From a bacterium (GTDB lineage: Bacteria > Patescibacteriota > CPR2 > UBA1875 > JAJYID01): a stretch of DNA of 64,000 nt. The notes under the pieces are model-generated. The model saw only the letters and a list, made by a program, of their open reading frames with translations. It was not told the DNA's origin and searched no databases. The stretch lies in NCBI GenBank assembly GCA_030647205.1, contig JAUSJO010000005.1, positions 10,523 to 74,522 on the forward strand, written 5' to 3'. Positions 2,030 to 58,435 of the stretch are shown piece by piece. Each line of letters begins with the position of its first letter. Within the stretch, counting starts at the first letter, position 1. A program made the translations under genes and the position numbers.

Positions 2030-5000
2030 ATGCAAGTTTCAGCATACAAGAGCTTAGTCATAAAGACACTTATTCTAGCAGCCATACTCATGCTTGTGAG
2101 CGGCTCTTTTATTTATTTTATTACCCTCAAAAAAGTTGACCAGAAGTATAAAAACCAGCAAAGCAAGGGCGGCAGCGTACCTATCTCAGCCGAGGGACTC
2201 AAAGACGACTTCATTTCCCTTCAGCAGGAAACAGGCAGTCCGCAAGAAGGTGGCCTAAACATTACAGGCAATATCCAAACGCAAGGTTCTGTACAAGGTT
2301 CATCTGTGAGTGCCGACAGTTTGAATATCGGGAGTCTCTCGGGGACTCTAAAAGCTAACCAGGGAGTAGTCTCCGGAGGAGCCACAACCTCAGATGTGCC
2401 GGAAGGTGACAACCTTTACTATACAGATGAAAGAGCTAGGCAGGCCCAGGGTAGTAGTGCTAAAAATACGGATGATATTACAGAGGGTACAAACAAATAC
2501 TATACAGATGAAAGAGCAAGAAGCTCTATCTCCGGCAGCTCATCAATCAATTACAATTCCACAACCGGTGCTGCTTCTCTCTCAAACAGCGGAGTTACCT
2601 CAGGGACTTATGGTGACAGCACTCATGTCGGACAATTCACAGTAGATGCGCAGGGAAGAGTGACATCAGCAGCAACGGTACTCATTACCGGAGCCGCACC
2701 AACCGGAGCAGCAGGCGGAGATCTCACCGGCAACTATCCAAATCCAACCATCAGCAACTCTTGGGGTGGTACAACAGGGATAAATACACTGGGAACTATC
2801 ACTACCGGAACATGGAACGGCACAGCTATCCAAGACACATACATAGCAACATCAGCCAACTGGAACACGGCTTACTCTGAAAGAAATCAGTGGGACGGCG
2901 GAGCAACAGGACTGGTTGCCGCAACCGGTAGAACTTCCCTTGGTCTTGGATCTTTAGCTACACTGAGCTCTGTTAATAACGGCAACTGGTCAGGAACTGC
3001 TCTTGCAGTTGCAAACGGCGGAACCGGAGCAACTGATGCGGCAGGGGCTAGGACAAATCTGGGGCTAGGCAGTGTCGAGAATACAGCTCTTTCGACTTGG
3101 GCGGGTTCATCGAATATTACGACCCTTGGGACAATAGGGACGGGTATCTGGAATGGTGCAGCCATTCAAGATGCAAATATCGCCTCATCTGCAAACTGGA
3201 ATACGGCCTACTCGGAAAGAAATCAGTGGGATGGAGGTTCGACAGGGCTAACCGCGGTAACCGGTAGAACATCGCTTGGTCTTGGCGATATTGCCACTCA
3301 GAGCTCTTCCGCAGTTTCCATTAGTGGTGGAGCGATCACGGGGACAACAACATTCAACGCCGGGGCAGTAACCTCTTCTGGAGTCGTGCAAGGAACAGCG
3401 GTTATCTCGCCGAGTGTTTATGGGTCGTCATCGGCTTCGGGGAATTTGTCTATCGAAAGTACCTCAAACGCAACCAAGGGTAATATTGCTATTGCTAGCA
3501 ATGGCGGCAATGTTGGTGTAGGTACAGCTACTCCGGATGAAAGGCTAACCATTGCCGGCAATGTAAAACAAGTTGCTTCGGGTAATCCAACTGTTCAGTC
3601 TACTTATACTTCAGGGACGGCCACAGCAGGCGGGGTTTATGTCTCCGGAAACTATGCTTATCTGGCCGCTATGGGCGATGGACTTCTTGTTTCAAATATT
3701 TCAAACCCTTCATCTCCTGTGACGGTCGGGTCATATAACACGGATGGTTACGCCATTGACGTTTATGTCTCCGGCAAGTACGCCTATGTCGGCGAAACAA
3801 ACGGTTTGAAGATTATTGATATTTCAAATCCCGCGGTTCCCACACAAGTTGGTTCGTATGCCACGGCTGGATTGATAGAAAGCGTATATGTCGTAGGCAA
3901 GTACGCCTACCTTGCGAGTAATACCGCCGAAAACAAACTTTTGATAGTTGATATCTCAAACCCGGCCAGCCCGACCTTGAAGGGTTCGTACACTGCGACA
4001 GAAGGACCTGTTGGAGTATATGTAAATGGTAACTACGCTTATATCGCAGAAGGTGACATGAGTGCTCCTTATACATCGTCGCACTTAACGGTTGTAAATA
4101 TTTCAAACCCGGCCAGCCCAACCTTAGCCAGCACAGTTGTTATAAGCGGTGAAGCCGAAGAGGTATACCAGTCCGGAGGATACGTTTATGTTAGTATTTG
4201 GGATAAAGATAGTAACTTAGCATCTCGTATCGAAGTATATGATGTTTCTAATCCATCTGTTGCGCCGGTACTAAAAGACTCACAAACCGTCAGTGGTGAG
4301 GCGGCGTGGGGACTATATGTATCCGGTAAATATGCGTATGTGGCGGTGACAGACGTGACCGATCCCTGGACAGAGTCAAAACTTGAAGTGTTTGACATTT
4401 CCAATCCATCGGCTATTAGCACTATAGGCTCTGTGAGTGTTCTCGGGTCGCCTTGGAACCTGAAGGTATCCGGTAAATACGCATATGTAACAGCCCTTAA
4501 CGCTGCCGGAAGCCCAATGCAGATTATAAATATCAATGGGATGGAAGCATCTGCTCTCAGCGTTGGCAATGTACAAAGTGGTAACATTATAGTGACGGAA
4601 AATATGGATATCGGTAATACGCTCTCTGTCAAAAGCGGCATAAGTGTAGGCAGCCAAGGCATAAACAGTGCGGGAAGGCTGAGTGTAGGCAATGAGGCTT
4701 ATTTTCAGGGTAATGTAGGTATCGGTGATACAACACCTCTTTCGCTCTTTACAGTAGGTAGTGGGGATCTATTCCAGGTTAACTCGTCCGGACAAATCGC
4801 TGCGGTAGCCGGATATACTCAAGGTTCAGGTAACTTCGCCATCTCAGGCGCAGGAACATTTACTACCGGAACAGGGGCGATTTCACTACAGGGGGCAACA
4901 ACGATTGCGGCAGGGAAGAACCTTGCTTTAGCTTCTGGTACAGGTACCTTTGCTCAAACATACACAGGCACTGCGACTGCAGGAACTATTACAGCGAACT

Positions 5001-8000
5001 CACTTACGTCCGGAAAGATTCTATCTCTTACATCTTCCTCTACCGCGGCATCAACGGGAAACACAGGACTGAATATTGCTATATCGGGTGCCAATGGAAC
5101 TGCCGGTATTACGCGTTATGGCATGCAGTCTGCGGTGACGGCCACAGGTGCAACCAGTACCAATGTTGGCGGATATTTCTCAGCTTCCGGGGCAACGAAT
5201 AACTATGGGTTGGTTGTTAGCTCTGGTAGTGTTGGTATCGGCACAGTAACTCCGAACGAAAAACTAACTGTCACTGGCGGGACGATACTACAAACTATTT
5301 CGACTGACCCTGTAGTTGTAGGATCGTTAACTGATGCTGACATGAGTGGTGTTATGGGAGTCAAGGTGGTAGACAGATATGCTTATGCGGCATCGTATAG
5401 TTCAGGTACTCTTACTATTTTAGATGTTTCAAATCCAGCAAGTCCGGTGAAAAAGGGAGTTGCCAGAGGGGTCACGGCTGCAGTTGGTGTACAAGTCGTC
5501 GGTCAGTATGCATATGTAACTGAATATGCCACAGAAGGGGGGATGACGGTGGTTGACGTCTCTAACCCAACTTTACCAGTTGTAGTTGGCAAAGTTGGCG
5601 GTCTAGACCATGCATTGCATATATCTGTGTCAGGTAAATATGCATATGTTACTGCCGCAGGAAATAGCGCGACAGGGAACAAGATGGTTGTTATTGATAT
5701 CTCCAATCCTGAACTGCCAATCATAGTGGGAACCCTTAAAGACGATACGCACTTATACAAGGCCGACGGTCTATGGGTGGCTGGTAAATATGCTTATGTG
5801 GAGTCCCATTATGCTGTGGGAGAGTTAGCTCCGGACCCTGATGCTGACTATCTGAACGTTGTTGATATCTCAGATCCAACCAACCCAACACTAGTGTCGT
5901 CTTACTTAAGGGCTGAGTTTTCTGGAGCCGATGAGATGTATATTTCCGGCAGGTACGCATATCTTTGCGGGCTTTATTCGGACACCTTCTCCGTAGTTGA
6001 TATTTCCAATCCTAAGAGCTTATCAATAGTAGGTTCGGTACAGGATCACACGCGTCTTGACTTCATGCCTTGGACTTATGTGTCCGGTAAATATGCTTAT
6101 GTAGGGGGTAACAGTGGTGTGACAGTGCTGGATATTTCAAATCCAACAGCACCGGTCATAGTCGGAAATAACAACACAGTAACCGGCATTGACGAAGTAT
6201 ATGTATCGGGTAGATACATATATGCCGCAGCAAGTACAAATCTTTCCATATTAGATATTTTTGGTACGGATCTGCCATCTGCAAATATTGGTAATCTCAC
6301 TGTTACGGCCGCTCAGGTTGACGTGAATATAGTCGTCGGAAATGACGCATATGTAAAAAATGGTTTAAATGTAGGTGAAGGTGGGATTTTCACAAATGGC
6401 GAAATAAGCGCAGGCGGAGAAGTTACCACGCCCGGAGTTGTCATCGCAGAAACGATACCTAAGTTGCCTACAACATTCGCTGATTCTGTCGGTTTTGGAA
6501 GTACTACACCCACCTCAGTATTTGTTCAGGGAGAATTTGCATACGTTGTGAACCAGACCTATGATCTTCTTCTCATATATAATAAAGCAGATCTGGGTAC
6601 AGTTCTAGGATTTGTTGCCGTAGGCACCAACGCAAGCGCCAACCCAACATCAGTTTTTGTTCAGGGCAGTTATGCGTATGTAGCAAACAATAATAATGGA
6701 ATCGAGGTATTTGATGTTTCTAACCCGGCCGTACCAGCGAAGCGGGGGAATGCGGGGTTTGCAAGCTATAGCCCCACCTCAGTCTATGTCCAGGGCAACT
6801 ATGCATACTGGGTAAACCAAGCCTATGATTATATTTTGATCCATGATATATCAAACCCGAACTCACTTGTATTTAAAGGGTCGGTGCTCTCCGGCACTGA
6901 TCCCACCTCAGTCTTTGTTCAGGGTAACTATGCTTACATTACTAACAGCGCTGACGGCCTTAAGGTAGTCGATATCTCAAGCCCTACCGCCCCAGTTGAT
7001 GTCGGGAATGTAGGTCTGGCTGGAGCGCTGCCAAAGTCTGTTTATGTCCAAGGCAAGTATGCTTACATGGTCGGTCAAACAGCTGATACGCTCATAGTTT
7101 ATGATGTGTCTAACCCTGTCTCACCTACAAATATTGGCAGTATCGCCGCGGGCACTAATCCTACATCCGTTTTCGTCCAAGGCAGCTATGCCTATGTGAC
7201 CGATAGCGGTAAGCTCAAGGTGTATGACGTTTCTACGCCCAGTGCTCCTGCGAGCTTAGGGGACGTGTCCTCTGGCACAAATCCCACATCAGTTTTTGTT
7301 CAGGGGCAATACGCCTATGTGACCAATACTACTGACCAGCTATACAAGTTTGATATGGGTTCATATAACCAAGGTATTAGCACGGGCGGTCTAGATGTTA
7401 ATAAGGCACATGTTCATGGCAATGTGGATATAGTAACTGATACCGATGCCACGGCTACAGCAGTAAGAACCGGTACTACTGTCACGAGCGTGACTATAAC
7501 AAGTGGCGGTTCCGGGTATACTAAGGTGCCAAACGTATTCTTCAAAGGGGGTGCGGGTAGCGGAGCAGCTGCTCATGCTGTACTTACAAATGGTGTGGTT
7601 ACAAGCATTGTGGTTGATGCTGTTGGGTCTGGGTACACTTCTACCCCGACGGTTTACATAGAAGGGGGGAAAGGATTTTCATATAATGGCGATCTCTTGG
7701 TTGATGTCGCAAAAGTGGCTGGGAATGTAAAGATCATTGTTCCTTTGGCGGATACGACAGATGTTACTCCAAATGTTCATAATACCGCAATAGGATCGGG
7801 AGCATTTAGAGATAATACAACTGGTTACTATAATACAGCCGTGGGTACTGACGCTGGCATGATGTGGACGACTGGTTACTATAATACTGCTCTTGGTGCT
7901 TGCGCCGGAGACCATATACAGGGCGGCTATTCAAACACTGCTGTTGGCATGGGGGCGCTGTCGGGACCGATTGGTGGTACAAGTGCAAGTATGAACTCAG

Positions 8001-9403
8001 CATTTGGAGATAATGCTCTCACATCTAACACTGGCAATGGGAACACAGCTCTTGGCTACCAAGCAGGGAAAGCAAATACATCGGGTGCATATAATACTTT
8101 TATTGGCTATAATGCCGGATATACCGGCACAGCTGCAACGCTTCAGAAGGCGGCGGCCATTGGTTATAATGCTCAAGTCACTCAAGACAGCAGCATAGTC
8201 TTTGGTGGCACTGGTGTAGATGCGGTCAAAGTCGGCATAGGGTTAACAGCACCAACAGAGGTTCTGGATGTAGTAGGCAACATCAACATAAGTTCAGGTA
8301 GTAGCGTTAAAACTAATGGCCAGATATTTTTAAGAAATACAGGGGCCGCAGATTCCCCCGGATATAGCGATTATTCCAATATATTGCTTGGTGTTAATAG
8401 CGGCGCCAATCTTGCTCCAGCCGCAGGATGGTTAGGGGTTGCAAATACTGCAATCGGCAGAAATACGCTAAACGGCGTTACAACGGGTAGTAACAACGTA
8501 GCCATTGGGCTGGGAACAATGAATGGGGCGGGTACTACCGCTACTAGTAATACGGCTCTTGGTATGGGCGCGGGGGCTACTCTTCAGGGCAATCAGAATG
8601 TATTTATAGGTGATAACTCAGGTGGAGCTATTACGGGTTCGGGTAATGTAATGATTGGATATCAGGCCGGCAAACAAGCGGTTCAAACTGCTGTTTCAAA
8701 CAAGCTTTACATAGATAACTCAAATGACTCCACGCCGCTTATTTATGGTGATTTTAGTACTGATGCAATCACTATAAATGGAACCTTGGCATCAGGAACG
8801 GTGAATGGTCAGACCGTATCATCCAGCGCGAACTTTACGGGGACTGTCACGGTGGCTACATCTGTTTCAACTCCAACCATTACAACTTCGGGCGCCGGTA
8901 TATCATTTAACTCAAAGAATTTAACAAATGTGGGAACTATCGCTTCAAGTACTATCAATGGCCAAACTATATCTACATCGGCAAACTTTACCGGCACGCT
9001 CGCAGTTTCAAGTACTTCTTTGTTTAGTGCCAACATAACCGTAAATGGTCACATTATTACGGGTAATGCCAGTGGTACTACTACGGTAGCTGTCGGTGCT
9101 GCTGCAGGAACGGGTGGAAGTGTTGGGGCGAGCATTGTGGGTAATGATACTGCCGGATATGTGACAATTACCACGGGGAACGCTTTAACCACTACCACGG
9201 GCACTATGGCAACCGTTACTTTTGCAAATGCTTATGGGGCTACGCCAAAGGCAGTGATTCTGACGCCGCAAGGCAATACAAACGGATCAAGTGTTAACTA
9301 TTATGTAGGTAGTGCCGGAACTACAACATTTACCATAAATACAGGAACAGTCCCTACGGGTGGAGGTAACACCTATATCTACAACTATATGATTATGCAG
9401 TAG
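2030..9403 (+). CDS. Giant surface protein (2457 aa) with an N-terminal signal-anchor, tail-fibre-like G/T/N-rich repeats, three blocks of LVIVD beta-propeller repeats and C-terminal Hep_Hag-like NTAxG repeats
   Basis: GGGGGG RBS 8 nt upstream. A TM helix lies at residues 12-32. The units GKYAYV...VDISNPASP and SVFVQGxYAYV...DVSNP recur more than 20 times and match the LVIVD consensus. Segments [20 protein letters not shown] and NTAVGxxAG are present. No internal stops over 7.4 kb. Confidence 0.8.
2800..3300 (+). repeat. Intragenic tandem duplication (~165 nt units, ~75% nt identity) encoding [46 protein letters not shown]
   Basis: Read directly: about 2806-2968 versus about 3130-3292. Confidence 0.6.
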
Positions 9404-9579: not shown

Positions 9580-12500
9580 ATGATCCTTGGGGTTATGAAG
9601 GCCATAAAAATAAAAAAGCTATTGATAAAATGTTTTCTTCTAGTTGCAGTACTTGTGATTGGTGGGTATTTTTCAGTGTTCCAGCTTGCCATCCAAAAGG
9701 CTGAAGAAGTTCGACATAAAAATCAAACCGAACTCACCAATACAAAACAGAAGTTAGACCAGGATATTCAGGCAGTAAAGAAAGATTTATCTTCATCTAT
9801 AACAAACAGAGGATATACAGAGATGAGCGCAGATCAGTTTACTTCGAAAGAAATAACATCTGGGCAGATTACTTCGGGTCAACTGACAGCATCAAGCGGC
9901 GTAAACATACAGGGTAGTCTTGCGGCAGATAGTCCGGTTCAGTCATCCGCTACTCTGGCGGCAAGTGTAGACCCAGGGACCATTTCCATATATCATGACG
10001 GATCGAACGGACACGTGGAAACTAATAGGGGGAGTATATTTCTTACGCCCGCAAACGGCTATCTAAGATCGGATGGCAATCTTTACCCTAAAACAAACAA
10101 CACTTACAACCTTGGTGTTTCTGGCTGGATGTGGAAAGACATTTACCTCCAAGGGAGTCTCCGGGATAGCGGCAACTCAGCGGCTGGGGTCACTGTTGCA
10201 GATTTGAGAAATGCGAAAAACCATATGTATACAAACGGATCAAGTCACTCTTGGCTTGGCCAAAGCTTAAGGATAGAAAACTCGCCGACGTTTAGGGGAC
10301 TTACATTAAACGGAAACTTATCTCTCGGGACAAATACCTTAACCACTACAAACGCTACGGTTGTAGCCAATCTGAATGCAGACACTTTGGACGGTTATCA
10401 TGCTGCCGATCTTCTAAGCGGAGTTTTGCCTCCCGGGGGAACAACATCTGACTATTTGAGAGGAGACAATACGTGGCAAGCTTTGAATTCATCGGCCGTT
10501 CAGGGTCTTGGGGCACTTGCAACCATTGATACGATTAACAACGGACAATGGTCAGGGACAGCTCTCTCGGTTGCAAATGGTGGTACGGGCGCTACTCTTG
10601 CAGTAGACGCGAGGACGAACCTGGGGCTTGGTACTTTGGCAGTTGAAGATGCCGCAACTTGGGCAGGATCAACGAGCATTGCGACAGTCGGAACCATTAC
10701 GACAGGCACTTGGAACGCAGGAGCCCTAACTTCCTCGGGAGCTATACAGGGCACATCATTGAATATTTTTGGGAACGCTGATGCAACGCATGTTATTGTT
10801 AGGGCGAATGCCACACAAAGTAATACTAATCCGCTTATCAGCATCCAGGCAAGCGATGGTGCAGAACTATTTAGAATTCATTCAGATGATATAGACAATA
10901 TATTCATAGGACGTGACGCAGGTATGAACAATGTTGCAAATCCGAGTACTAGCGCAGGTAACTACAATACTTTTCTGGGATATACTGCAGGAAGGAATAA
11001 TACATCAGGACATTACAATACTTACCTAGGAAACAGATCAGGTGCCCTCACAACCTCGGGAGATCACAATACCTTTGTTGGGATGCAGTCAGGGTATAAC
11101 AACACAACTGGGCAATATAATAATTTTTTTGGCATAACGGCCGGCCAAGACTTAACTGATGGAGATCATAATTTGGCATTAGGTTCTTACGCTCAGTTTG
11201 GTTTGGTAACTGGTGAAAGTAACATGTCTATTGGTAACTATGCAGGCTATAACAGACTTCTGGCTAGAGCGAACATACTACAAGGATACGGCGCTGGCGG
11301 TTCAGGAAAAGCCGGTGCCTATAATACGGCTGTTGGAGATAATACTTTATATAACGATTATACGGGGATGGGTAATGCGTCATTTGGTGCTTATTCTTTA
11401 TATAATAATAAAGGGACAAGTGATAGAAGCATAACCGGTTTTAGCGCCAGTGGTGGAAATACAAAAGTTACGACACTTACTAGTCACGGTCTTCAGGTCA
11501 GTGACTCGGTATTTATAGCATTTAATGATACTACTCAAACTGAAGTTACAAAATCAGGGAAGTACACAGTTTTAACTGTTCCCGATGCCACAAGCTTCAC
11601 AATTAGCAAAACTTACGATTCTGCAAATGATAAGAAGGGATGGTGGGAACGAGGAGCAACCTTCTCTGATAATGGAAGCGGTAAAGTAAGGGTAATTTCA
11701 AACAATCATGGTGTTCCTAACGGAGGCATGGTAGCTCTTGGTTACAGCGGAACCGGAGTTACGGGAGGTTATTATAAGGGCTTGCAGGTGGCAACTCTGG
11801 TTGATGCTAATACATTTGATTTGACAGATCTAAGCTATACAGCAAGCGTTACTTCCGGTTGGTTTTTTTATGAAGATGACGCTATAAATAACACGGCAAT
11901 CGGAACTTTGGCGGGATATGCAAATACTACCGGTATAAATAATACATTTCTTGGATATAAATCAGGAATGACGTCTACTGCGACTCTCCAGAATGCCGCA
12001 GCGATTGGCTACAATGCTCAAGTCACTCAGAATAGCTCCATTGTTCTTGGTGGTACAGGGGCTGACGCTGTTAATATCGGGATAGGGACTACGGCTCCTC
12101 TCGAAAAGATACATGTTGACCATGGTAATATGCGACTTGATCAAGAAGCGGCTCCCGGAGCACTAACAGCAACCGTAACTGCGACAGCGGGCAATCCAAA
12201 TGGTACTTACCAATATGCCGTTACTTTTGTGACCGCCGATGGCGAAACTGAGGCTGGTACCGCTAGTACGGCTGTGTCCCCAGCTCTTAAACAGGTTAGT
12301 TTGACAAATATCCCTCTTGGTTCAAGTAAAGTAACTGCTAGAAAGATTTATAGGAGTTCAGAGGGGGAACATTGGGCGGGATATACAAATAAAGTGAGAA
12401 ATGCCAAACTAGTCACTACTCTTGCCAATAATACAGCGACGACATATACGGATAATGTTGCCGATGGATCGCTTGGCGCCGCCGCCCCATACAATAATAC

Positions 12501-14346
12501 TACCGGAGGAAGTATAATGAACGGCACTGTGACTGTTATGGAAGCAGACCAAGGAGTTACAAGATTAGGCTATAATGCTGGTAGCGTAAATAAGGGTGCG
12601 AGCAATACATTTATAGGGATCAACTCTGGCCAGAACAATACTACGGCTGACTACATAACTGCTGTCGGAATAAATTCTTTACAGTCAAATACTTCAGGTT
12701 GGTACAATGTTGCTCTTGGAGCACATACTCTCTCATCTAATGTTGATGGCTATAGTAATGTTGCTATAGGGACAAACACCTTACATAGTAATGTTTCGGG
12801 AGACAACAATACAGCCGTTGGCACAGATGTTCAAAGAGATACTACTGGCAACAACAACACCTCGATCGGTTCACACTCTTTGCATTTTACTACTACAGGG
12901 AGCAACAATGCTGCTGTTGGAGATTTTTCACTTTATTCAAATCTTACGGGGAGCCGCAACTCTACCAGCGGATCAATGGCTCTCTACTCAAATTCGACTG
13001 GGAGCAATAATTCTGCTATTGGATATTTGTCCCTCTTTAGTAATACTATCGGCGGCTTCAATGTCGCCAACGGCATCGACTCCCTTGGTAGTACAAACCC
13101 GACAGCCAGTGGAACTATAACGGCATTTGCCAACTCTCCTACCGAACCGGGAGTAAAGACCCAGGTGACATCAGCCGGACACGGCAGGTCAAACGGCGCT
13201 CTGGTTACTATTTATGATCCTACCGCTGCCTTTAACTCCTCGGTATATAAAGGTATCTGGGTAATTTCCAATGTCGCAGCAAATACCTTTGATATTACTA
13301 AGGTTTATTCCGCAGAGGCGGCAGGCGGCAGTAAGTGGGTAGTAGGAGGCGGGAATACGGCTCTCGGAGGTTCATCTGGTTATGCTAATACTACCGGTAC
13401 AGGCAATACTTTCCTTGGCTATAACGCAGGGGCTACCTCAACTGCAACCCTCCAAAATGCTACAGCCATCGGATATAACGCTCAGGTTACGGCAAGTAAC
13501 TCTATTGTGCTTGGTGGTACAGGCAGTACAGACTCGGTAAATGTTGGTATTGGAACAACGGCGCCGACGACTATGCTGGATGTCAGACAGTCGGTCAATG
13601 GCACAAATATAGTAAATATCCAGCGTGTCACAGATACCTCACCAACCGGTCATCTTCTAGACTTCAAGACTGCTGCTGGGGGAACATTAACTTACTTTAA
13701 TAGTTACGGAAACTATGTAGGGGTAGCGTTGCAAGAATTGTATACAACAGCTTCACCGACTTACTTTGAGGCTAACTCATGGGTCATACAAGGAAGTGGG
13801 ACAGGTCCTACTAGGATTGGTTCAAGTAATAATAAAAACATAGAGCTTTACCCGCAGGGGACCGGCAGTCTTTTAGTCAAAGGAACGATGGCCGCGCTTG
13901 GGCCAAACAGTTCTGCATATACTGCGTCCAAGTCAACAACGACGATAACTGCAACCGTTGGAACATTTTCGGCTGCCGATGTTGGGAAATACTTTATCTG
14001 GGGTGACTCCGGAGGTACAACAGATAGAATAACAGGATACACAGACGCCACCCACGTTACCGTTGCAGATAGTGGCACCATGACCTCGCAGACAGGATAT
14101 GTAAGAGTAACAAACTTATACGTTACTTTGGCAACTGGCAATATTGGTATAGGTACAAATAATCCAACCGAGAAACTGGAAGTGAATGGTGGTATGCGTT
14201 TAAATACTACAACGGCTAAACCAACCTGTGATGCTACACATCGCGGCACTTTCTGGGTGAACCAAGGCGCAGCAGGAGTTAAGGACGATGTAGAGGTTTG
14301 TGCCAAAGATGCTGCTGACGCCTATGCGTGGAGAACTATTTACTAA
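9580..14346 (+). CDS. Giant surface protein paralog (1588 aa) with N-terminal signal-anchor, tail-fibre-like repeats and Hep_Hag-like repeats; no LVIVD blocks
   Basis: It shares near-identical segments with the 2030..9403 protein: [40 protein letters not shown] (twice), [31 protein letters not shown] and GIGTxxPTEKLxV. The start may instead be the ATG at 9595 (TGGGGT 5 nt upstream). Confidence 0.8.
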   Translation: MILGVMKAIKIKKLLIKCFLLVAVLVIGGYFSVFQLAIQKAEEVRHKNQTELTNTKQKLDQDIQAVKKDLSSSITNRGYTEMSADQFTSKEITSGQITSGQLTASSGVNIQGSLAADSPVQSSATLAASVDPGTISIYHDGSNGHVETNRGSIFLTPANGYLRSDGNLYPKTNNTYNLGVSGWMWKDIYLQGSLRDSGNSAAGVTVADLRNAKNHMYTNGSSHSWLGQSLRIENSPTFRGLTLNGNLSLGTNTLTTTNATVVANLNADTLDGYHAADLLSGVLPPGGTTSDYLRGDNTWQALNSSAVQGLGALATIDTINNGQWSGTALSVANGGTGATLAVDARTNLGLGTLAVEDAATWAGSTSIATVGTITTGTWNAGALTSSGAIQGTSLNIFGNADATHVIVRANATQSNTNPLISIQASDGAELFRIHSDDIDNIFIGRDAGMNNVANPSTSAGNYNTFLGYTAGRNNTSGHYNTYLGNRSGALTTSGDHNTFVGMQSGYNNTTGQYNNFFGITAGQDLTDGDHNLALGSYAQFGLVTGESNMSIGNYAGYNRLLARANILQGYGAGGSGKAGAYNTAVGDNTLYNDYTGMGNASFGAYSLYNNKGTSDRSITGFSASGGNTKVTTLTSHGLQVSDSVFIAFNDTTQTEVTKSGKYTVLTVPDATSFTISKTYDSANDKKGWWERGATFSDNGSGKVRVISNNHGVPNGGMVALGYSGTGVTGGYYKGLQVATLVDANTFDLTDLSYTASVTSGWFFYEDDAINNTAIGTLAGYANTTGINNTFLGYKSGMTSTATLQNAAAIGYNAQVTQNSSIVLGGTGADAVNIGIGTTAPLEKIHVDHGNMRLDQEAAPGALTATVTATAGNPNGTYQYAVTFVTADGETEAGTASTAVSPALKQVSLTNIPLGSSKVTARKIYRSSEGEHWAGYTNKVRNAKLVTTLANNTATTYTDNVADGSLGAAAPYNNTTGGSIMNGTVTVMEADQGVTRLGYNAGSVNKGASNTFIGINSGQNNTTADYITAVGINSLQSNTSGWYNVALGAHTLSSNVDGYSNVAIGTNTLHSNVSGDNNTAVGTDVQRDTTGNNNTSIGSHSLHFTTTGSNNAAVGDFSLYSNLTGSRNSTSGSMALYSNSTGSNNSAIGYLSLFSNTIGGFNVANGIDSLGSTNPTASGTITAFANSPTEPGVKTQVTSAGHGRSNGALVTIYDPTAAFNSSVYKGIWVISNVAANTFDITKVYSAEAAGGSKWVVGGGNTALGGSSGYANTTGTGNTFLGYNAGATSTATLQNATAIGYNAQVTASNSIVLGGTGSTDSVNVGIGTTAPTTMLDVRQSVNGTNIVNIQRVTDTSPTGHLLDFKTAAGGTLTYFNSYGNYVGVALQELYTTASPTYFEANSWVIQGSGTGPTRIGSSNNKNIELYPQGTGSLLVKGTMAALGPNSSAYTASKSTTTITATVGTFSAADVGKYFIWGDSGGTTDRITGYTDATHVTVADSGTMTSQTGYVRVTNLYVTLATGNIGIGTNNPTEKLEVNGGMRLNTTTAKPTCDATHRGTFWVNQGAAGVKDDVEVCAKDAADAYAWRTIY

Positions 14347-14405
14347 CAGCTCCTTTTTGACCTCTCATGGTTTTTGGGTAAATAGGGTTTACTGTTTTTT
14401 TCTTT

Positions 14406-14801
14406 TTGTTCTATAATAAACATATGCATTACTTTAGTTTGGTGCCAACATTTTTCATGTGGTGGTACGGGAGGGGACTAAAAGATCTCTTTAGTTTCTT
14501 GTCGGCTCTTTTTTCATATACAAGCAACATGTTCTCGGTGACCACCCTTTTAAAGACTTTGTTTTCTCCATGGAAGAAGCTAGTCGGTGAGAGGGGAAGA
14601 GGGATAGAGGGGCTCAAGCTATGGCTGGTGGACAATCTTGTTTCTCGGGCAGTTGGTTTCATAGTGCGGCTGTTTATGATAATCTTTTTTCTCATTGTCT
14701 TTATATTATTTGCGTTTTTTGCTGTTTTGGCAGTTATATTCTGGATAGGTATGCCGGTGTTCATTCTTGCAGCTTTTATTTATATATTTATAGGATACTA
14801 A
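14406..14801 (+). CDS. Small membrane protein of unknown function
   Basis: 131-aa ORF with two or three hydrophobic helices and a TATAAT about 10 nt upstream. Its stop is 4 nt before the AAA+ gene start, suggesting co-transcription. The start codon is uncertain. Confidence 0.4.
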   Translation: MFYNKHMHYFSLVPTFFMWWYGRGLKDLFSFLSALFSYTSNMFSVTTLLKTLFSPWKKLVGERGRGIEGLKLWLVDNLVSRAVGFIVRLFMIIFFLIVFILFAFFAVLAVIFWIGMPVFILAAFIYIFIGY

Positions 14802-14805
14802 TAAG

Positions 14806-17325
14806 ATGATAAATCCGGCACAGATAAAATTTACAAAAAGGGCTAGCAGAGTAAATGCGGCAAAGCTAGCTAATATGCTAGGTAAGCATTTTTTCATACT
14901 TGTGCTCGATATCTTTGCTTTTTTAGGAATTTTTGCTGTTCTTTTTCTCCTGGCAGACGGATTTGTGTTGCATGTAGGAGCGCTACTTACCTTACCGTCA
15001 AAGATATTTCTGTTTATTGGGCTCAAATCTTTTGTAATCTCTCTGTTTGTTAAAAGTTATTTTAGGGAGATTGAAGATGGTATTAAGATTCCTGATAATC
15101 CTCCCGCGTATGAAGTCTTTGACATTTGCGACCTTGAGACTATAAGGATCTTGGATTCAATCAATATGACAACTCCTGATGTTATAGACTTTTATAAAAA
15201 GCTTCTCGGGACAAGAAGGGTTGGTTTTATTGCCGATGAGATGGGCATGAATGACGATTTTAACAAGAAGATGTTCTCAGGCTTGCAAAGGGAACAGAAC
15301 ATCTTGCCCCAAGTATTTGCTTATGCCATTGAAAATGCAATAAATGAAAAATCGAAGTTTATTACGGCAGCTGATGTATTTTATGGATTTATAAAGATGA
15401 GTGCTACTTTAGACCAAGCACTTATGTCCATCGAGATAAGTGAGGATGATCTCTCAAATATAATTTTTTGGGCAAACAGCCTTTTCCAGAAAATATACTA
15501 TCCTAAAACGCTGCTTGATAAGTTTCATGCAAAAAATGCCGGTCTGGCTGAGGGTTGGGCATCAGGCTACACCCTTTTCCTTGATAGGTTCAGCACAGAT
15601 ATAACAAACCCGGCTTATTTTGGTAGTTTCTCATCTTTGGGGAGGGAAAAGATACTCGCTCATATGGAGAACACCCTTTCAAAAGAGGCTAAGAACAACT
15701 GTATTTTGACCGGTGAAGCGGGTGCCGGGAAGACTTCTTTGGTTTATGGCTTTGCTGAGAAAATATATTGGGGAGACACAATTCCGGAACTTTCTCACAG
15801 TAGAGTTGTATCTCTTGATGCATCTACACTTCTATCCGGGTCGTCTGATCCGGGCGAAATACACGAAAGACTTCTTGGCGTTTTAAATGATGCGATTCAT
15901 GCGGGCAATGTGATTCTTTTTATAGATAATATTCACGATCTCTTTGCGGGCGGAGGGGAGAAAGTAGGAACCATTGATGCTTCAGAGATCATTGCTCCAT
16001 ATCTGCAAAGCAGTAGTCTTAGAATCATCGGGATTTCGGATAATGCTCATTATCAGACATATATAGTTCCCCATACTCAGATATCCGGCAATATGGAGAG
16101 AATAGAAGTGCCACCGACAGATGAGAACCAAACTGTAAGGATACTTGAGGATCTAAGTCTTTATTTCTCGGGCAAGTTTGGTCTCAGGATTACTTATAAT
16201 GCTCTGAAAGAAGTGTATAAACTTGCCGAAAGATTTGTTGCCGAAAAAGGATTCCCCGCACGCGCTGTCGATATGTTGGAGAATGTTTGTACTTCAGCAA
16301 AGAACTCAGGTAGCAAAGTTTTGGACAGGCATGTAATAGATAAGCTAGCCGAGAGTACACTAAATGTTCCCATCCAGGAAGCCGAGGGTGATGAAAGAGA
16401 AAAGCTTTTGAAGCTGGAAGAGAAGCTTCACTCCAGGGTTATCGGGCAGGATGAGGCGGTAAAGGCTATATCACAAGCTCTGCAACGTGCCAGGACTCAG
16501 GTGACGGACACAAAAAGGCCGATCGGGACGTTTCTTTTCTTGGGTCCGACCGGTGTAGGAAAAACAGAACTTACAAAGGCGCTTGCCTGGGCATATTTTG
16601 GCAATGAAGAAAACATGGTCAGGATGGATATGAACGAGTTCCAAGACGCAGCATCGGTGGATAGGTTTATCGGTCGGCAAATGCCTGGGAGCGAGAAGCT
16701 TGAAGGCGGTGACTTTGTTAAAAAGGTCCGCGAGAAACCGTTTTCAGTTATTCTTCTTGATGAGCTTGAAAAAGCTCATCCGGATATCTTAAATTTATTC
16801 TTGCAAATCTTAGATGAAGGATACTTCACTGATGGTATGGGCTCTAGAGTATCTTTCCAAAACTCTATCATCATTGCCACCTCAAATGCCGGAGCAAACC
16901 TAATCCGTGAGGGGGTTGCCGGCGGCAAGACCTCAGACAGTTTAAAGGGGGAACTGCTGAACTATCTTCAGGCAGAGGGAATTTATAAGCCGGAGTTTTT
17001 GAACAGATTTGACGGGGCAATTGTCTTTAAGCCATTAACAAAGATAGAACTTTTGAAGATTGCCGGGCTGATGTTTGAAAAGACTTGTGCAAGTTTAAGG
17101 CAAAAAGGCTATGTTATTCAGATAGACTCGTCCGCGCTAGAGAAACTGGTAGAGTGGGGGTATCAGCCTGAGTTTGGAGCAAGGCCTATGCGCAGGGTGT
17201 TTCAGGATAAGTTGGAAAGCATGTTGGCGAAGAAGATTTTGGAGGGTACTGTCCAAAAGGGCGCACCTTTCACGGTTAAGCTGACGGATTTGGAGGATAC
17301 AACTCAAGCAGTTGGAAATATGTAA
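14806..17325 (+). CDS. Membrane-anchored ClpA/ClpB-family double AAA+ ATPase (TM hairpin, Clp_N-like repeats, D1 and D2)
   Basis: D1 Walker A is GEAGAGKTS. D1 Walker B reads ILFIDNIHDL, with DN in place of DE. D2 Walker A is LFLGPTGVGKTELTKALA, D2 Walker B is ILLDELEKAH, and the sensor is GARPMRR. TM helices lie at residues about 28-80. There is no long M-domain between D1 and D2 and no IGF/IGL loop. Confidence 0.8.
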   Translation: MINPAQIKFTKRASRVNAAKLANMLGKHFFILVLDIFAFLGIFAVLFLLADGFVLHVGALLTLPSKIFLFIGLKSFVISLFVKSYFREIEDGIKIPDNPPAYEVFDICDLETIRILDSINMTTPDVIDFYKKLLGTRRVGFIADEMGMNDDFNKKMFSGLQREQNILPQVFAYAIENAINEKSKFITAADVFYGFIKMSATLDQALMSIEISEDDLSNIIFWANSLFQKIYYPKTLLDKFHAKNAGLAEGWASGYTLFLDRFSTDITNPAYFGSFSSLGREKILAHMENTLSKEAKNNCILTGEAGAGKTSLVYGFAEKIYWGDTIPELSHSRVVSLDASTLLSGSSDPGEIHERLLGVLNDAIHAGNVILFIDNIHDLFAGGGEKVGTIDASEIIAPYLQSSSLRIIGISDNAHYQTYIVPHTQISGNMERIEVPPTDENQTVRILEDLSLYFSGKFGLRITYNALKEVYKLAERFVAEKGFPARAVDMLENVCTSAKNSGSKVLDRHVIDKLAESTLNVPIQEAEGDEREKLLKLEEKLHSRVIGQDEAVKAISQALQRARTQVTDTKRPIGTFLFLGPTGVGKTELTKALAWAYFGNEENMVRMDMNEFQDAASVDRFIGRQMPGSEKLEGGDFVKKVREKPFSVILLDELEKAHPDILNLFLQILDEGYFTDGMGSRVSFQNSIIIATSNAGANLIREGVAGGKTSDSLKGELLNYLQAEGIYKPEFLNRFDGAIVFKPLTKIELLKIAGLMFEKTCASLRQKGYVIQIDSSALEKLVEWGYQPEFGARPMRRVFQDKLESMLAKKILEGTVQKGAPFTVKLTDLEDTTQAVGNM

Positions 17326-19820: not shown

Positions 19821-20582
19821 ATGAGATGTCCAAAATGCGGACAAGAGATGATACATATCAACAATCAGTATATTTGTACTGCTTGTGGTATTGTTGCTAA
19901 TGAATTTTCTCCCAAGCAGCAGGTTTTGGGGGCAATCAAGAAAAAAATGGCTGCCCAGAATACTTCCAAACAAGAGGAGTATGTATCTCCTGTTGCGATA
20001 GCTACAGAACAACCGCAAGCACAACAATATATCCCGCCCAACCCGGCCTCAAAAATCGACCAGCAAGCTTTGGCTGGGATTACTCTAGATCAGATTATTA
20101 AAGAGTTGGCTGCAGGTGCTGTAAAGTTAAACAAGGGTACAACAGATAAAAATGAAGAAGATTATCTGGACTCAGGATCTGAGGGTGAAAAGATTATCCC
20201 TCGGATTGGAACGGAAGGTAAGGAAGTGGCGAGTCAAGATAGTGAAGTACCTCAAAAACAAGTTCAGGCTCCACCCGCACCAGTGCAGGTAGCTCAACCG
20301 GTTCAGTCTGAAGCTATACAGGTAGAAAGCGTTGCACCGGCTAATATGACTTTTCCACCCTCGTCAACGTCTCAAGATACTATGGGGAGTCTCCAGGTTA
20401 GTCAGGTTTTAGAAGGCGATCAGGAGGAGATCTACCCTTCGCATCAGGTAAATCCGATCCTTATAAAAACTTTGATATATGTATTTGTGACATTGGTCCT
20501 GTTTGTGATAGGGTATCTTATATACACAAACCCTGGTGCACGAGGGTTTATAGAGAATACTCTGAAAAATTTAGGGAAATAA
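19821..20582 (+). CDS. Zinc-ribbon protein with a Q/P/A-rich low-complexity linker and a C-terminal TM anchor
   Basis: MRCPKCGQEM...CTACG carries two CxxC pairs. The C-terminal helix reads LIYVFVTLVLFVIGYLIY. Confidence 0.5.
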   Translation: MRCPKCGQEMIHINNQYICTACGIVANEFSPKQQVLGAIKKKMAAQNTSKQEEYVSPVAIATEQPQAQQYIPPNPASKIDQQALAGITLDQIIKELAAGAVKLNKGTTDKNEEDYLDSGSEGEKIIPRIGTEGKEVASQDSEVPQKQVQAPPAPVQVAQPVQSEAIQVESVAPANMTFPPSSTSQDTMGSLQVSQVLEGDQEEIYPSHQVNPILIKTLIYVFVTLVLFVIGYLIYTNPGARGFIENTLKNLGK

Positions 20583-55458: not shown

Positions 55459-55986
55459 CTAACTGAAAATAGCTTTCACTATTTCCTTTGGTTTTTCCAT
55501 GGCTCCGATCCCTCTGTCGCCGCAGGCAAGGATTGCATGTCGTGGCATGATAACCTTCAGATTTGGCAGAATCTTTAAGGATTCCAGATTTCTCTGAAGG
55601 ATTGGGTTTTCCCACATTTTGGTATTCATCGCCGGAGCGATAAAAATGGGAGTTTCTGCTGGGATAGCTGCCAAAACGGTAGTGGCAAGATCATCAGCGA
55701 TGCCGTTTGCCATTTTGCCGATGAAGTTGTAGGTTGCCGGAGCAACCAGTACCAGGTCGGCCCATTTCGCAAGTTCGATATGTTCAATGTCAGATTTTTC
55801 TGACCCAAACATTTCTGTCTGCGTGGGATGGCCGGAAAGGGCAGAGAATGTGAGCGGGGCGACGAACTGAGTTGCCCCGCGGGTCATTACGACCCGCACA
55901 TCATGTCCCTTTGCTTTTATCCTCCCGACAACTTCACACGATTTATATACGGCGATTCCGCCCGTTACGACAAGTAGCACATTCAT
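55459..55986 (-). CDS. coaC: Phosphopantothenoylcysteine decarboxylase (flavoprotein), stand-alone
   Basis: N-terminus MNVLLVVTGGIAVYK. Later segment PAMN. Confidence 0.8.
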   Translation of the reverse strand: MNVLLVVTGGIAVYKSCEVVGRIKAKGHDVRVVMTRGATQFVAPLTFSALSGHPTQTEMFGSEKSDIEHIELAKWADLVLVAPATYNFIGKMANGIADDLATTVLAAIPAETPIFIAPAMNTKMWENPILQRNLESLKILPNLKVIMPRHAILACGDRGIGAMEKPKEIVKAIFS

Positions 55987-56725: not shown

Positions 56726-57347
56726 GGCTTCTCCTTTCTTGCATGTTATCGATATGCGTGTTGATTCTCTCGAGAACTTCCGGGGTTATAAATCTCGGCT
56801 TAATCTCGAGTTTTTTGTCGATGTTCGCCGACATTTTGCCTTCAGAGATGACAAAGTTGGGTGATTTCTTATAATTCGTTTTGCCATCCCATGGATACGC
56901 CCGGTTGTCGAGCGGATCATGCGGCACGTCACCTTCCAGTGTTCGGTCTCTTGTAGCATCAGTGGCAATCCATTCTCCATTTAGATACACATATGCGAAT
57001 ATGTGAGTTGTAACCGGAGAGATCTTCTCGTAGAAGTCAGGACTGCTTACGTCAAGGAGGGCACTTTTTCGGATCTTCATGGTGCCATAGGCCGCGGGAA
57101 TTCCCGCGGCTCTAAGAATTGCTATCTGGAGGTTTGCTTTGTTGGTACACATACCATATCGCTTATCTAACGTTTCTGAAGCTTTTACGTTCCAGAAATC
57201 GAAGCGATAGGGAACATAGGAGATGAATTTCCAGACATTGACTGCTGTTTTTGTTTCATCCTTTCCCTCGAGCTCTCTGGCTTTTGCCTTGATCTCAGGG
57301 TTTTGGCAGTCGCAATATCTGGTCTTTTCAAGATATTCCGACAACAT
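56679..57347 (-). CDS. Transglutaminase-like cysteine protease family protein
   Basis: Segment RYGMCTNKANLQIAILRAAGIPA carries the Cys. Segments HIFAYVYLNGEWIATDATRD carry the His and Asp. Confidence 0.65.
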   Translation of the reverse strand: MLSEYLEKTRYCDCQNPEIKAKARELEGKDETKTAVNVWKFISYVPYRFDFWNVKASETLDKRYGMCTNKANLQIAILRAAGIPAAYGTMKIRKSALLDVSSPDFYEKISPVTTHIFAYVYLNGEWIATDATRDRTLEGDVPHDPLDNRAYPWDGKTNYKKSPNFVISEGKMSANIDKKLEIKPRFITPEVLERINTHIDNMQERRSHESKHNEKESAHHCG

Positions 57348-58420: not shown

Positions 58421-58435
58421 CTTTTCCTCCTTTCT

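What the first reader, a model, noticed from the sequence alone, without database searches (positions are those of the whole stretch)
14806..17325. Clp-family ATPase with degenerate D1 Walker B, no M-domain, no ClpP-docking loop and a TM anchor
D1 has an intact Walker A (GEAGAGKTS) but reads ILFIDNIHDL where ClpA/B/C have DE. That substitution resembles hydrolysis-dead trap mutants. D2 is canonical (LLDELEKAH, GARPMRR). The D1-D2 linker is short, so there is no ClpB/ClpC coiled-coil M-domain. No IGF/IGL tripeptide follows the D2 TSN motif, so the protein is unlikely to dock ClpP. Two N-terminal TM helices precede Clp_N-like repeats.
Basis: partly seen in the sequence, partly recalled or inferred. 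Interest (0 to 1): 0.65.

Follow-up and report, generated by a model that had tools for sequence, protein, structure and literature searches.

The report
Membrane-anchored Clp-like ATPase with partner
This gene encodes a membrane-tethered relative of the ClpB/ClpC protein-unfolding machines, found only in the ultra-small Patescibacteria (CPR), in which one of the two motor rings is dead, the usual substrate-gripping tyrosines are missing, and a small uncharacterised membrane protein is always encoded next to it or fused to it.

Summary
ORF 14806-17325 (839 aa) is a two-ring Hsp100/Clp ATPase. Its D1 Walker B reads D-N instead of D-E. It has no M-domain and no ClpP-docking loop. It carries an N-terminal two-helix membrane hairpin followed by a divergent Clp_N-like domain.

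The tools added four things.
1. D1 is broadly degenerate: it also lacks both arginine fingers and the pore-loop tyrosine.
2. D2 keeps every catalytic motif in more than 200 relatives, but its GYVG pore loop is replaced by a non-aromatic loop (PGSEKLEGG).
3. These features define a large family. Every member that carries an organism name is a Patescibacteria MAG.
4. A roughly 125-aa membrane protein with no Pfam or PDB match (14424-14801) lies directly upstream in 38 of 39 related loci. It is fused to the ATPase in several lineages.

The most likely reading is a ClpP-independent, DnaK-independent, two-component membrane machine driven by D2. Its substrate handling is probably non-canonical, and its client is unknown. 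Probable orthologues in cultured Southlakia epibionticum (SEML1_0700 and SEML1_0701) share the same mild Tn-seq fitness phenotype. I class it as a new variant of a known kind, of moderately high interest.

The parts
14388..14417 (+). Promoter-like site TTTACT-18 nt-TATAAT (10 of 12 matches). It ends 6 nt before the partner gene's ATG, so the mRNA may be leaderless or have a very short leader.
   Evidence: consensus scan only, not proof of function; sequence. No promoter-like site lies between the two genes.
14424..14801 (+). Partner gene: a 125-aa small membrane protein of an uncharacterised family. Invariant motifs are WWYG, LFxPW, DNxxSRxxGxxxR and WxxxP. The ORF list starts it at TTG 14406, but homologues start at MHY, which corresponds to ATG 14424.
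   Evidence: alignments, 16 invariant columns; no Pfam family. AF2 pLDDT 87.6, all-helical; no PDB fold match; immediately upstream of the ATPase in 38 of 39 related loci; fused to the ATPase in several lineages.
14806..17325 (+). Clp/Hsp100-like two-ring AAA+ ATPase, 839 aa. Its start lies 4 nt after the partner's stop codon, so the two genes form an operon.
14887..15078 (+). N-terminal transmembrane helical hairpin (aa 28-91). It is preceded by a basic N-terminus, which predicts an N-in/C-in topology.
   Evidence: Hydropathy. AF2 helices 28-53 and 59-91. Present in all full-length family members and absent from the ClpB/ClpC/ClpV references.
15115..15498 (+). Helical N-domain (aa 104-231), a divergent Clp_N-like repeat domain.
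   Evidence: hhalign against canonical Clp_N: probability 93%, E 2.6e-7. There is no direct Pfam hit. Some distant family members do carry PF02861.
15556..15573 (+). Family-signature motif WASGYT (aa 251-256) in the linker between the N-domain and D1. It is invariant or nearly so in the family and absent from canonical Clp proteins.
   Evidence: A genome scan with this motif returned only Patescibacteria MAGs or MAGs titled only 'bacterium'. The motif overlaps the AF2 low-confidence segment 244-252.
15712..15738 (+). D1 Walker A GEAGAGKTS (aa 303-311), intact.
   Evidence: Lys is retained in 49 of 87 family members and in 115 of 115 of the Saccharimonadales branch.
15913..15942 (+). D1 Walker B ILFIDNIHDL (aa 370-379). 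N375 (nt 15928-15930) replaces the catalytic Glu.
   Evidence: At this position the family has D 34, N 31, E 16, G 3 and others.
16672..16710 (+). D2 pore-loop hairpin GRQMPGSEKLEGG (aa 623-635). It occupies the place of ClpB GAPPGYVGYEEGG and contains no aromatic residue.
   Evidence: There is no aromatic residue in 80 of 87 and 112 of 115 relatives. The AF2 model keeps the beta-hairpin at 624-633.
16753..16779 (+). D2 Walker B LLDELEKAH (aa 650-658), canonical.
   Evidence: D652 and E653 are invariant in 87 of 87 and 115 of 115 relatives.
17035..17271 (+). ClpB_D2-small C-terminal domain (aa 744-822), including sensor-2 GARPMRR.
   Evidence: PF10431, E 4.8e-19.

Best explanation
The two genes 14424-14801 and 14806-17325 encode a Patescibacteria-specific, two-component membrane machine.

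Shown: the large subunit is an Hsp100/Clp-fold double-ring AAA+ ATPase. A two-helix N-terminal hairpin holds it at the membrane. D1 keeps a nucleotide-binding P-loop in this clade, but it has lost the catalytic Glu, both arginine fingers and the pore-loop tyrosine. D2 keeps every catalytic element. The protein has no M-domain and no ClpP-docking loop. A small, highly conserved membrane protein is always co-encoded with it and is fused to its N-terminus in some lineages.

Inferred: the protein forms a hexamer whose N-terminal, substrate-entry face points at the cytoplasmic side of the membrane. D1 acts as an ATP-binding assembly or scaffold ring, and D2 is the only motor. The partner is a stoichiometric subunit of the membrane-proximal cap. 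The machine works independently of ClpP and DnaK. Because both rings lack aromatic pore loops, I infer that it does not thread polypeptides processively the way ClpB, ClpC or ClpA do. It more probably uses D2 ATP hydrolysis to remodel, release or assemble a specific membrane-associated client, which could be the partner or something bound to it. The client is unknown.
For: Fold and domains: Pfam AAA_2, ClpB_D2-small and AAA_lid_9. Best PDB sequence matches are ClpB and ClpC. AF2 pLDDT is 85, and Foldseek target TM-scores are about 0.8 to ClpC/ClpB chains.

D1 decay: Walker B Glu survives in only 16 of 87 members, Arg fingers in 1 or 2 of 87, the pore-loop Tyr in 0 of 87, and Walker A Lys in 49 of 87.

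D2 integrity: Walker A Lys, Walker B D-E, sensor-1 Asn, the Arg finger and sensor-2 Arg are invariant in 87 of 87 and 115 of 115 relatives.

Pore loop: the D2 loop has no aromatic residue in 80 of 87 and 112 of 115 relatives, yet the loop sequence is conserved within clades.

No M-domain and no ClpP loop.

Membrane hairpin: present in all full-length members.

Partner: it lies directly upstream on the same strand in 38 of 39 loci spanning Parcubacteria/Paceibacterota, Shapirobacteria and Saccharimonadales. It is fused to the ATPase in L022 and in P0028, P0029, P0114, P0131, P0132, P0135, P0136 and P0142. No other neighbour is conserved across clades.

Genetics: in Southlakia epibionticum the probable orthologue pair SEML1_0700/0701 shows the identical Tn-seq pattern, NE, NE, GD (PMC10633639 Table S1).
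Against: No biochemical or structural data exist for any member. Hexamer formation, topology and the partner interaction are all inferred.

Loss of the pore-loop tyrosines does not prove absence of threading. Other residues could grip substrate, for example the conserved Leu in PGSEKLEGG or the aromatic WASGYT motif near the pore entrance.

In the Saccharimonadales branch the D1 Walker B is a conserved D-D with an intact GKT, so D1 may keep slow hydrolysis or a regulatory nucleotide cycle in that branch.

The assignment of SEML1_0700/0701 to this family rests on length, Pfam coordinates and gene arrangement, not on a sequence comparison.
Confidence: 0.55

Rival explanations
1. It is a membrane-protein dislocase or quality-control unfoldase, similar in logic to FtsH or Msp1 but without a protease domain. 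The hexamer would thread misfolded or mislocalised membrane proteins out of the bilayer through its central pore, and the partner would act as a substrate adaptor or recruitment factor.
For: The N-terminal TM anchor places the entry face of the ring against the membrane. The D2 motor is fully intact. A Clp_N-like domain is available for substrate or adaptor binding. Disruption causes a mild fitness cost rather than lethality in the probable Southlakia orthologues, which fits a quality-control role.
Against: No ring has an aromatic pore loop. In characterised Hsp100, FtsH and Msp1 enzymes these residues are required for translocation (established knowledge). The D2 loop is acidic and polar.
Confidence: 0.22
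2. It is a membrane-localised general disaggregase or chaperone of the ClpB, ClpG or ClpL type that simply lost the M-domain because it acts on its own.
For: D2 is most similar to ClpB D2 (about 46% identity to ClpB proteins over the D2 region; the top NCBIfam hit is ClpB). Stand-alone disaggregases without DnaK coupling exist (ClpG, ClpL; established knowledge).
Against: Scores are far below the cut-offs for ClpB, ClpG and ClpK: 476, 390 and 397 bits against cut-offs of 1232, 1900 and 1900. D1 is inactive, whereas ClpB, ClpG and ClpL need both rings and their pore-loop tyrosines (established knowledge). An obligate membrane anchor and partner are not features of any known disaggregase.
Confidence: 0.1
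3. It is an ATP-dependent motor or gate of a membrane translocation or assembly device for envelope or surface proteins. The analogy is to HSP101 in the PTEX translocon or ClpV in type VI secretion, with the 6 + 6 membrane hairpins forming the membrane part.
For: Twelve hairpins per hexamer (inferred) could form a membrane ring. Giant predicted surface proteins lie directly upstream in the window and in L001 and L005. Patescibacteria depend on surface structures for their epibiotic lifestyle (PMC10633639).
Against: The giant-protein neighbours are not conserved in most loci. In the Paceibacteria-type loci the module sits between rplJ/rplL and the mraZ-rsmH division cluster. No secretion-system genes co-occur. 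There are no pore-loop aromatics.
Confidence: 0.08
4. The database annotation is right: it is a ClpA/ClpC-type ATP-binding subunit that feeds ClpP.
For: [quoted passage not shown] The lack of an M-domain and the single-piece alignment resemble ClpA. Saccharibacteria do encode ClpP.
Against: There is no IGF, IGL, LGF or VGF loop at the docking position in 85 of 87 members, and the two LGF occurrences lie at a non-homologous position near the Arg finger. The ClpA score of 416 bits is below the cut-off of 993. S. epibionticum has a separate canonical ClpC with a double Clp_N and a UVR motif.
Confidence: 0.03

Closest known systems
ClpB / Hsp104 (class I Hsp100 disaggregase)
   Same: It has a two-ring AAA+ architecture with AAA_lid_9, AAA_2 and the ClpB_D2-small domain. 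D2 is the closest sequence match (top NCBIfam and PDB hits). There is no ClpP-docking loop.
   Different: It has no M-domain coiled coil, being 123 residues shorter between the rings. The D1 catalytic Glu and Arg fingers are lost. Neither ring has a pore-loop Tyr. It has an N-terminal membrane hairpin and an obligate small membrane partner. It scores 476 bits against the 1232-bit family cut-off.
ClpA
   Same: It has two rings directly joined without an M-domain. The distance from Walker B1 to Walker A2 is about 211 residues, and it aligns to ClpA in a single stretch.
   Different: It has no IGL ClpP-binding loop, an inactive D1, no GYVG, and a membrane anchor. It scores 416 bits against the 993-bit cut-off.
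ClpV (TssH) of type VI secretion
   Same: It is a ClpP-independent Hsp100 specialised for one dedicated client. The D1 pore loop of the ClpV reference (P0120) also lacks Tyr.
   Different: ClpV keeps an M-domain-length insert (335 residues between the motifs), an active D1 and the D2 GYVG loop. ClpV is soluble and encoded in T6SS clusters, and none is present here.
NSF D2 / p97 D1-type non-hydrolysing rings (established knowledge)
   Same: One ring of a tandem AAA+ protein binds nucleotide but serves mainly for assembly, while the other ring is the motor.
   Different: They belong to a different AAA+ clade. Here the inactive ring is the membrane-proximal D1, and in many members it has even lost the P-loop Lys.
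Torsins with LAP1/LULL1 (established knowledge)
   Same: They are Clp-D2-related AAA+ proteins without aromatic pore loops. They act at a membrane and depend on a small membrane-spanning partner protein.
   Different: Torsins are single-ring, lumenal, eukaryotic proteins that lack their own Arg finger, which the cofactor supplies. Here the D2 Arg finger is invariant and the protein has two rings.
ClpI of Actinomycetota (PMC10149685)
   Same: It is another lineage-restricted double-ring Clp class recognised bioinformatically, and some of its subtypes lack the ClpP-binding LGF motif.
   Different: According to that paper's abstract, ClpI keeps intact ATPase modules and unfolding/translocation motifs and has an M-domain. 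It has no membrane anchor or partner.

Membership tests
Hsp100/Clp class I (double-ring) superfamily | Two AAA+ modules with AAA_lid_9 between them, an AAA_2-type D2 and the ClpB_D2-small C-terminal domain | tested here: met
   Pfam PF07724 E 7.5e-45, PF10431 E 4.8e-19, PF17871 E 7e-9. Foldseek gives target TM-scores of about 0.8 to ClpC/ClpB chains.
ClpB | Long coiled-coil M-domain inserted in the D1 small subdomain (the DnaK-coupling element) | tested here: not met
   The Walker B1 to Walker A2 spacing is 211 residues against 334 in the ClpB references. ClpB aligns in two pieces that skip its residues ~432-528. The AF2 model has no long coiled coil.
ClpB | Both rings catalytically competent (Walker B Glu, Arg fingers) with pore-loop tyrosines (KYRGE in D1, GYVG in D2) | tested here: not met
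   N375 replaces the Glu, RR is replaced by GN, KYRGE by SSDPGE, and GYVG by PGSEK.
ClpB | NCBIfam equivalog score at or above the cut-off (TIGR03346, 1232 bits) | tested here: not met
   476 bits.
ClpA / ClpC / ClpE (ClpP partners) | A ClpP-docking [ILVM]-G-[FL] loop after D2 sensor-1 | tested here: not met
   It is absent in the query and in 85 of 87 relatives, and the ClpC references show LGF or VGF plus an insert at that site.
ClpC | A short M-domain with a UVR-like motif and a canonical double Clp_N | tested here: not met
   Spacing is 211 residues against 271 in ClpC. There is no PF02151 or PF02861 hit. The N-domain is related to Clp_N only at the profile level.
ClpA | NCBIfam equivalog score at or above the cut-off (TIGR02639, 993 bits) | tested here: not met
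   416 bits.
ClpV / TssH | Encoded with type VI secretion genes, and TIGR03345 score at or above 885 bits | tested here: not met
   380 bits. No T6SS families were found among the window ORFs or in the related loci.
ClpG / ClpK stand-alone disaggregases | NCBIfam exception-model score at or above 1900 bits | tested here: not met
   390 and 397 bits.
The Patescibacteria TM-anchored Clp-like family defined here | An N-terminal TM hairpin, a W[AS][SF]GYT motif before D1, a degenerate D1, an invariant D2 catalytic set, a non-aromatic D2 pore loop, and the partner gene adjacent or fused | tested here: met
Functional AAA+ hexamer at the membrane | Hexamerisation, D2 ATPase activity, membrane insertion, and physical binding of the partner | not testable with these tools
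   This needs biochemistry or multimer structure prediction. Only a monomer AF2 model was available.

The most novel reading that the evidence does not exclude
This is a previously unrecognised class of Hsp100 machine that spans multiple Patescibacteria lineages. It would be a two-subunit, membrane-embedded AAA+ complex with a pseudo-ATPase D1 ring, and it would do ATP-driven work without aromatic pore loops. That implies a mechanism other than hand-over-hand polypeptide threading, for example partner-mediated remodelling of a membrane or envelope component that is specific to these ultra-small episymbiotic bacteria.
Probability: 0.3. Interest if true: 0.8.

Novelty: new variant of a known kind. 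Interest (0 to 1): 0.62.

Why it matters
Hsp100/Clp proteins are textbook threading machines, and their pore-loop tyrosines and dual active rings are considered essential.

This is a large natural family. It has more than 200 non-redundant sequences spread over several Patescibacteria lineages. The D2 ATPase has been kept under strict selection, while the D1 catalytic site, both grips, the M-domain and the ClpP loop have been discarded. In exchange the family gained a membrane anchor and an obligate partner. That combination tests how much of the canonical mechanism is dispensable.

It also gives a functional handle on two 'hypothetical' or mis-annotated genes in a major part of microbial dark matter. 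The probable orthologues sit in a genetically tractable Saccharibacterium and tolerate transposon insertions, so the hypothesis can be tested directly.

Tried and rejected
I replaced it with the ATPase-specific WASGYT region (A3).
- Pfam scans of the partner gave no family, both alone and for all 37 aligned members at E up to 1. Foldseek of its AF2 model against the PDB gave nothing.
- phmmer of ATPase residues 1-265 against 1.84 billion representatives found only 35 hits, nearly all Clp-sized proteins or fragments of them. A single-sequence search therefore does not link the N-terminus to anything else.
- I first suspected that SEML1_0512 of S. epibionticum was the orthologue. Table S2 of the paper shows it is a canonical ClpC with a double Clp_N and a UVR motif. 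SEML1_0700 fits instead.
- I tested whether any neighbour other than the partner is conserved. PPDK and enolase follow the module only in the near clade. rplJ/rplL upstream and mraZ-rsmH-ftsL downstream flank it only in the Paceibacteria-type loci. Nothing is shared across clades, so I draw no functional inference from those neighbours.
- Literature searches for a prior description of a membrane-anchored or CPR-specific Hsp100 found none. One query was rejected for syntax.
- The window contains no tRNA and no Rfam features.
- No clpP, clpX or second Clp ATPase is present among the 46 window ORFs of at least 120 aa that I treated as real genes. The rest of the genome could not be examined.
Full report
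**1. The observation**

ORF 14806-17325 (+) encodes 839 aa. Pfam finds an AAA_2 D2 module (aa 571-736), ClpB_D2-small (744-822), AAA_lid_9 (440-529) and a P-loop around aa 279-320. It finds no Clp_N.

Against solved structures, ClpB aligns in two pieces. Query 258-541 matches T. thermophilus ClpB 152-432, and query 513-821 matches 528-834. ClpA aligns in one piece, with query 257-827 matching 167-736. In those alignments ILFIDNIHDL lies exactly over ClpB ILFIDELHTV. N375 therefore replaces the Walker B glutamate, and no shifted Glu exists.

The spacing from D1 Walker B to D2 Walker A is 211 residues. It is 334-335 in the ClpB and ClpV references and 271 in the ClpC references, so there is no M-domain. 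Between D2 sensor-1 (TSNAG) and the Arg finger (NRFD) there is no [ILVM]G[FL] tripeptide and no insert. The ClpC references carry LGF or VGF at that point.

Hydropathy gives a Kyte-Doolittle peak of 2.9 over residues 24-64 and a second segment up to residue 86. The AF2 model has mean pLDDT 85.2 and places helices at 28-53 and 59-91. Together these indicate a membrane hairpin. The N-terminus before the hairpin is basic, which by the positive-inside rule predicts an N-in/C-in topology with the ATPase in the cytoplasm. That topology is an inference.

A profile of the family's residues 88-262 matches a profile of canonical Clp_N domains with hhalign probability 93% and E 2.6e-7. 'Clp_N-like' is therefore right, even though Pfam misses it.

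**2.

D1 is degenerate well beyond Walker B. The pore-loop motif KYRGE is SSDPGE here. The arginine-finger pair in ERRF is G-N.

D2 keeps Walker A, Walker B, sensor-1, the Arg finger and sensor-2. Its pore loop is different: GAPPGYVGYEEGG in the references is GRQMPGSEKLEGG here, with no aromatic residue. The AF2 model still shows the beta-hairpin at 624-633 that carries this loop.

**3. It is a family, not an oddity**

The homologue search returned about 50 relatives. Those with source names are labelled Patescibacteria, Staskawiczbacteria or Saccharimonadales.

I collected 87 non-redundant members from those hits and from fetched loci.

| Feature | Members that keep it (of 87) |
|---|---|
| All five D2 catalytic positions | 87 |
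| D1 Walker B Glu | 16 |
| D1 Arg fingers | 1 (first position), 2 (second position) |
| D1 pore-loop Tyr | 0 |
| D1 Walker A Lys | 49 |
| Any aromatic residue in the D2 pore loop | 7 |

At the D1 Walker B Glu position the other members have D (34), N (31), G (3) and a few other residues. In the D2 pore loop, the seven aromatic residues sit at scattered positions.

A separate set of 115 full-length Saccharimonadales members shows the same picture.
- The D2 motifs are present in 115 of 115.
- D1 Walker A GK[TS] is present in 115 of 115 (GKT in 112).
- D1 Walker B is D-D in 112 of 115.
- There are no Arg fingers.
- The D2 loop is of the type ADAAQDQHSLTA, with aromatics in only 3 of 115.
- An N-terminal hydrophobic hairpin is present in 115 of 115.

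The TM hairpin is present in all full-length members and in none of the ClpB, ClpC or ClpV references.

A motif W[AS][SF]GYT just before D1 is a family signature. I scanned one genome per GTDB species (185,579 species) with [GA][EKQ]xWASGYT[IL]. The scan returned 34 confirmed loci, all MAGs. Most are titled Parcubacteria/Paceibacterota, Staskawiczbacteria, Shapirobacteria, 'Patescibacteria group' or 'Candidatus Saccharibacteria'. A few are titled only 'bacterium'.

**4. The partner gene**

A small ORF ends 4 nt before the ATPase start codon. Homologues begin at MHY, so the real start is ATG 14424 and the protein is 125 aa.

An HMM built from five such ORFs (alignment A2) hits an ORF directly upstream on the same strand in 38 of 39 other loci available at that point. 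The single miss, L036, is a contig that is cut at the ATPase start. In L011 another ORF is inserted between the two genes. The Saccharimonadales locus L040, fetched afterwards, also has the partner upstream, with E 3.8e-22.

In L022 (Shapirobacteria) the partner and the ATPase form one reading frame, and the partner replaces the ATPase's own hairpin. The partner domain also sits at the N-terminus of P0028, P0029, P0114, P0131, P0132, P0135, P0136 and P0142. Adjacency combined with repeated fusion is classical evidence that two proteins act as one unit.

The partner family has 44 clusters in the 5.8-billion-protein database, and every named one is 'hypothetical'. It has 16 invariant positions, which fall in the motifs WWYG, LFxPW, DNxxSRxxGxxxR and WxxxP. 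It has no Pfam match. Its AF2 model is confident and all-helical, with pLDDT 87.6. It has no PDB fold match.

In the fusions, the segment after the partner's hydrophobic stretch runs straight into the cytoplasmic ATPase. The partner's C-terminus must therefore be cytoplasmic. This suggests a hairpin or re-entrant membrane insertion with a conserved cytosolic face. That is an inference.

**5. Genomic context**

The window carries housekeeping genes. In order they are:
- TIM and class II aldolase;
- two giant proteins of 2457 aa (LVIVD repeats) and 1588 aa;
- the partner and the ATPase;
- PPDK/PEP synthase, a 253-aa unknown protein, enolase, iPGM and PfkB;
- ADP-forming acyl-CoA synthetase, POR, UvrD, MetRS, IscS/NifU, AlaRS, CoA biosynthesis genes and FtsA.

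There is no ClpP, ClpX or second Clp ATPase in the 64 kb.

PPDK and enolase follow the module only in close relatives. In many of the more distant (Paceibacteria-type) loci the module lies between rplJ/rplL and mraZ-rsmH-ftsL. Only the partner is conserved across clades.

A promoter-like TTTACT-18-TATAAT ends 6 nt before the partner's ATG, and no such site lies between the two genes. This fits a two-gene operon, but it is only a consensus match.

**6. Experimental hook from the literature**

Table S1 and Table S2 of Wang et al., Cell 2023 (PMC10633639) list two adjacent genes in Southlakia epibionticum. SEML1_0700 is an 'AAA family ATPase' of 860 aa with AAA_2 at 544-706 and D2-small at 713-792, and it has no Clp_N. 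SEML1_0701 is a 127-aa hypothetical protein that overlaps the upstream end of SEML1_0700. Both are scored not essential at T0 and T1 and 'growth defect' at T2.

The same genome has ClpP (SEML1_0493) and a canonical ClpC with a double Clp_N and a UVR motif (SEML1_0512), and both are non-essential.

The assignment of SEML1_0700/0701 to this family is an inference. It rests on architecture, gene arrangement and the abundance of the family in Saccharimonadales. I could not compare the sequences themselves.

**7. Mechanism**

Shown: the protein has an Hsp100 fold. It has a membrane hairpin. D1 lacks its catalytic and grip residues. D2 keeps a complete catalytic set but has no aromatic pore loop. 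There is no M-domain and no ClpP loop. A partner is always co-encoded and is sometimes fused.

Inferred from established knowledge of AAA+ proteins: the protein forms a hexamer with its N-terminal face against the membrane. D1 serves as a nucleotide-binding assembly ring, comparable to NSF D2. D2 is the sole motor. The machine is independent of ClpP and DnaK. Polypeptide threading is either absent or non-canonical.

The client is unknown. The leading rival is a threading membrane-protein dislocase, which the topology favours and the pore loops disfavour.

**8. Comparison with known families and novelty**

The protein belongs to the class I Hsp100 superfamily. It fails the tested defining features of ClpB, ClpA, ClpC, ClpV and ClpG/ClpK (and the membership table).

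Literature searches found no description of a membrane-anchored or CPR-specific Hsp100. The nearest precedent for a bioinformatically defined new Clp class is ClpI, and according to its abstract ClpI keeps intact ATPase modules and unfolding motifs.

I rate this a new variant of a known kind. It is well supported as a family, and its function is open.

Noticed in passing
window 2030-9403 (+) and 9580-14346 (+): Two giant predicted proteins lie directly upstream of the module and interrupt a string of glycolysis genes. One is 2457 aa with 10 LVIVD repeats and a beta-propeller. The other is 1588 aa with an N-terminal hydrophobic segment, repetitive Asn/Gly/Thr-rich sequence and no Pfam hit. L001 and L005 also carry proteins of more than 1200 aa upstream. 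These may be surface adhesins of an episymbiont.
   Followed up: partly
window 19821-20582 (+): A 253-aa ORF between PPDK and enolase has an N-terminal CxxC...CxxC zinc-ribbon-like motif, a low-complexity middle and a C-terminal TM helix, and no Pfam hit. An unannotated ORF occupies the same slot in L001 (15405-16085) and L003 (10967-11923).
   Followed up: no
L022 1220-2461; proteins P0028, P0029, P0114, P0131, P0132, P0135, P0136, P0142: These are natural fusions of the small partner protein to the N-terminus of the Clp-like ATPase. In L022 (Shapirobacteria) the partner replaces the ATPase's own TM hairpin and part of its N-domain.
   Followed up: partly
L011 1136-1513 and 2425-4971: This is the only locus where the partner and the ATPase are separated. 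The gap is about 900 nt and contains an ORF of about 290 aa.
   Followed up: no
window 14388-14417: A promoter-like TTTACT-18-TATAAT ends only 6 nt before the partner's ATG, which suggests a leaderless or near-leaderless transcript.
   Followed up: no
whole window: GC skew is positive in 31 of the 32 2-kb windows, and almost all genes are on the + strand. The exception is a CoA-biosynthesis block at about 55459-58834 on the - strand, where the skew turns negative (56001-58000). This fits a leading-strand position. No tRNA or Rfam feature is found in the 64 kb.
   Followed up: no
L004, L013-L039 (Paceibacteria-type loci): In about 18 loci the module lies between the rplJ-rplL ribosomal protein genes and the mraZ-rsmH-ftsL division/cell-wall cluster, often with a small 119-aa membrane-protein ORF just upstream. 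In S. epibionticum the probable orthologues abut murT/gatD. I treated this as clade-level synteny, but a link to the cell envelope is not excluded.
   Followed up: partly
Saccharimonadales relatives P0049, P0198-P0316: In this branch the D1 Walker B is a conserved D-D (112 of 115) and Walker A GKT is fully intact. In the other branches the position drifts and the P-loop Lys is often Arg. D1 may keep a nucleotide-dependent role in Saccharimonadia that has been lost elsewhere.
   Followed up: partly
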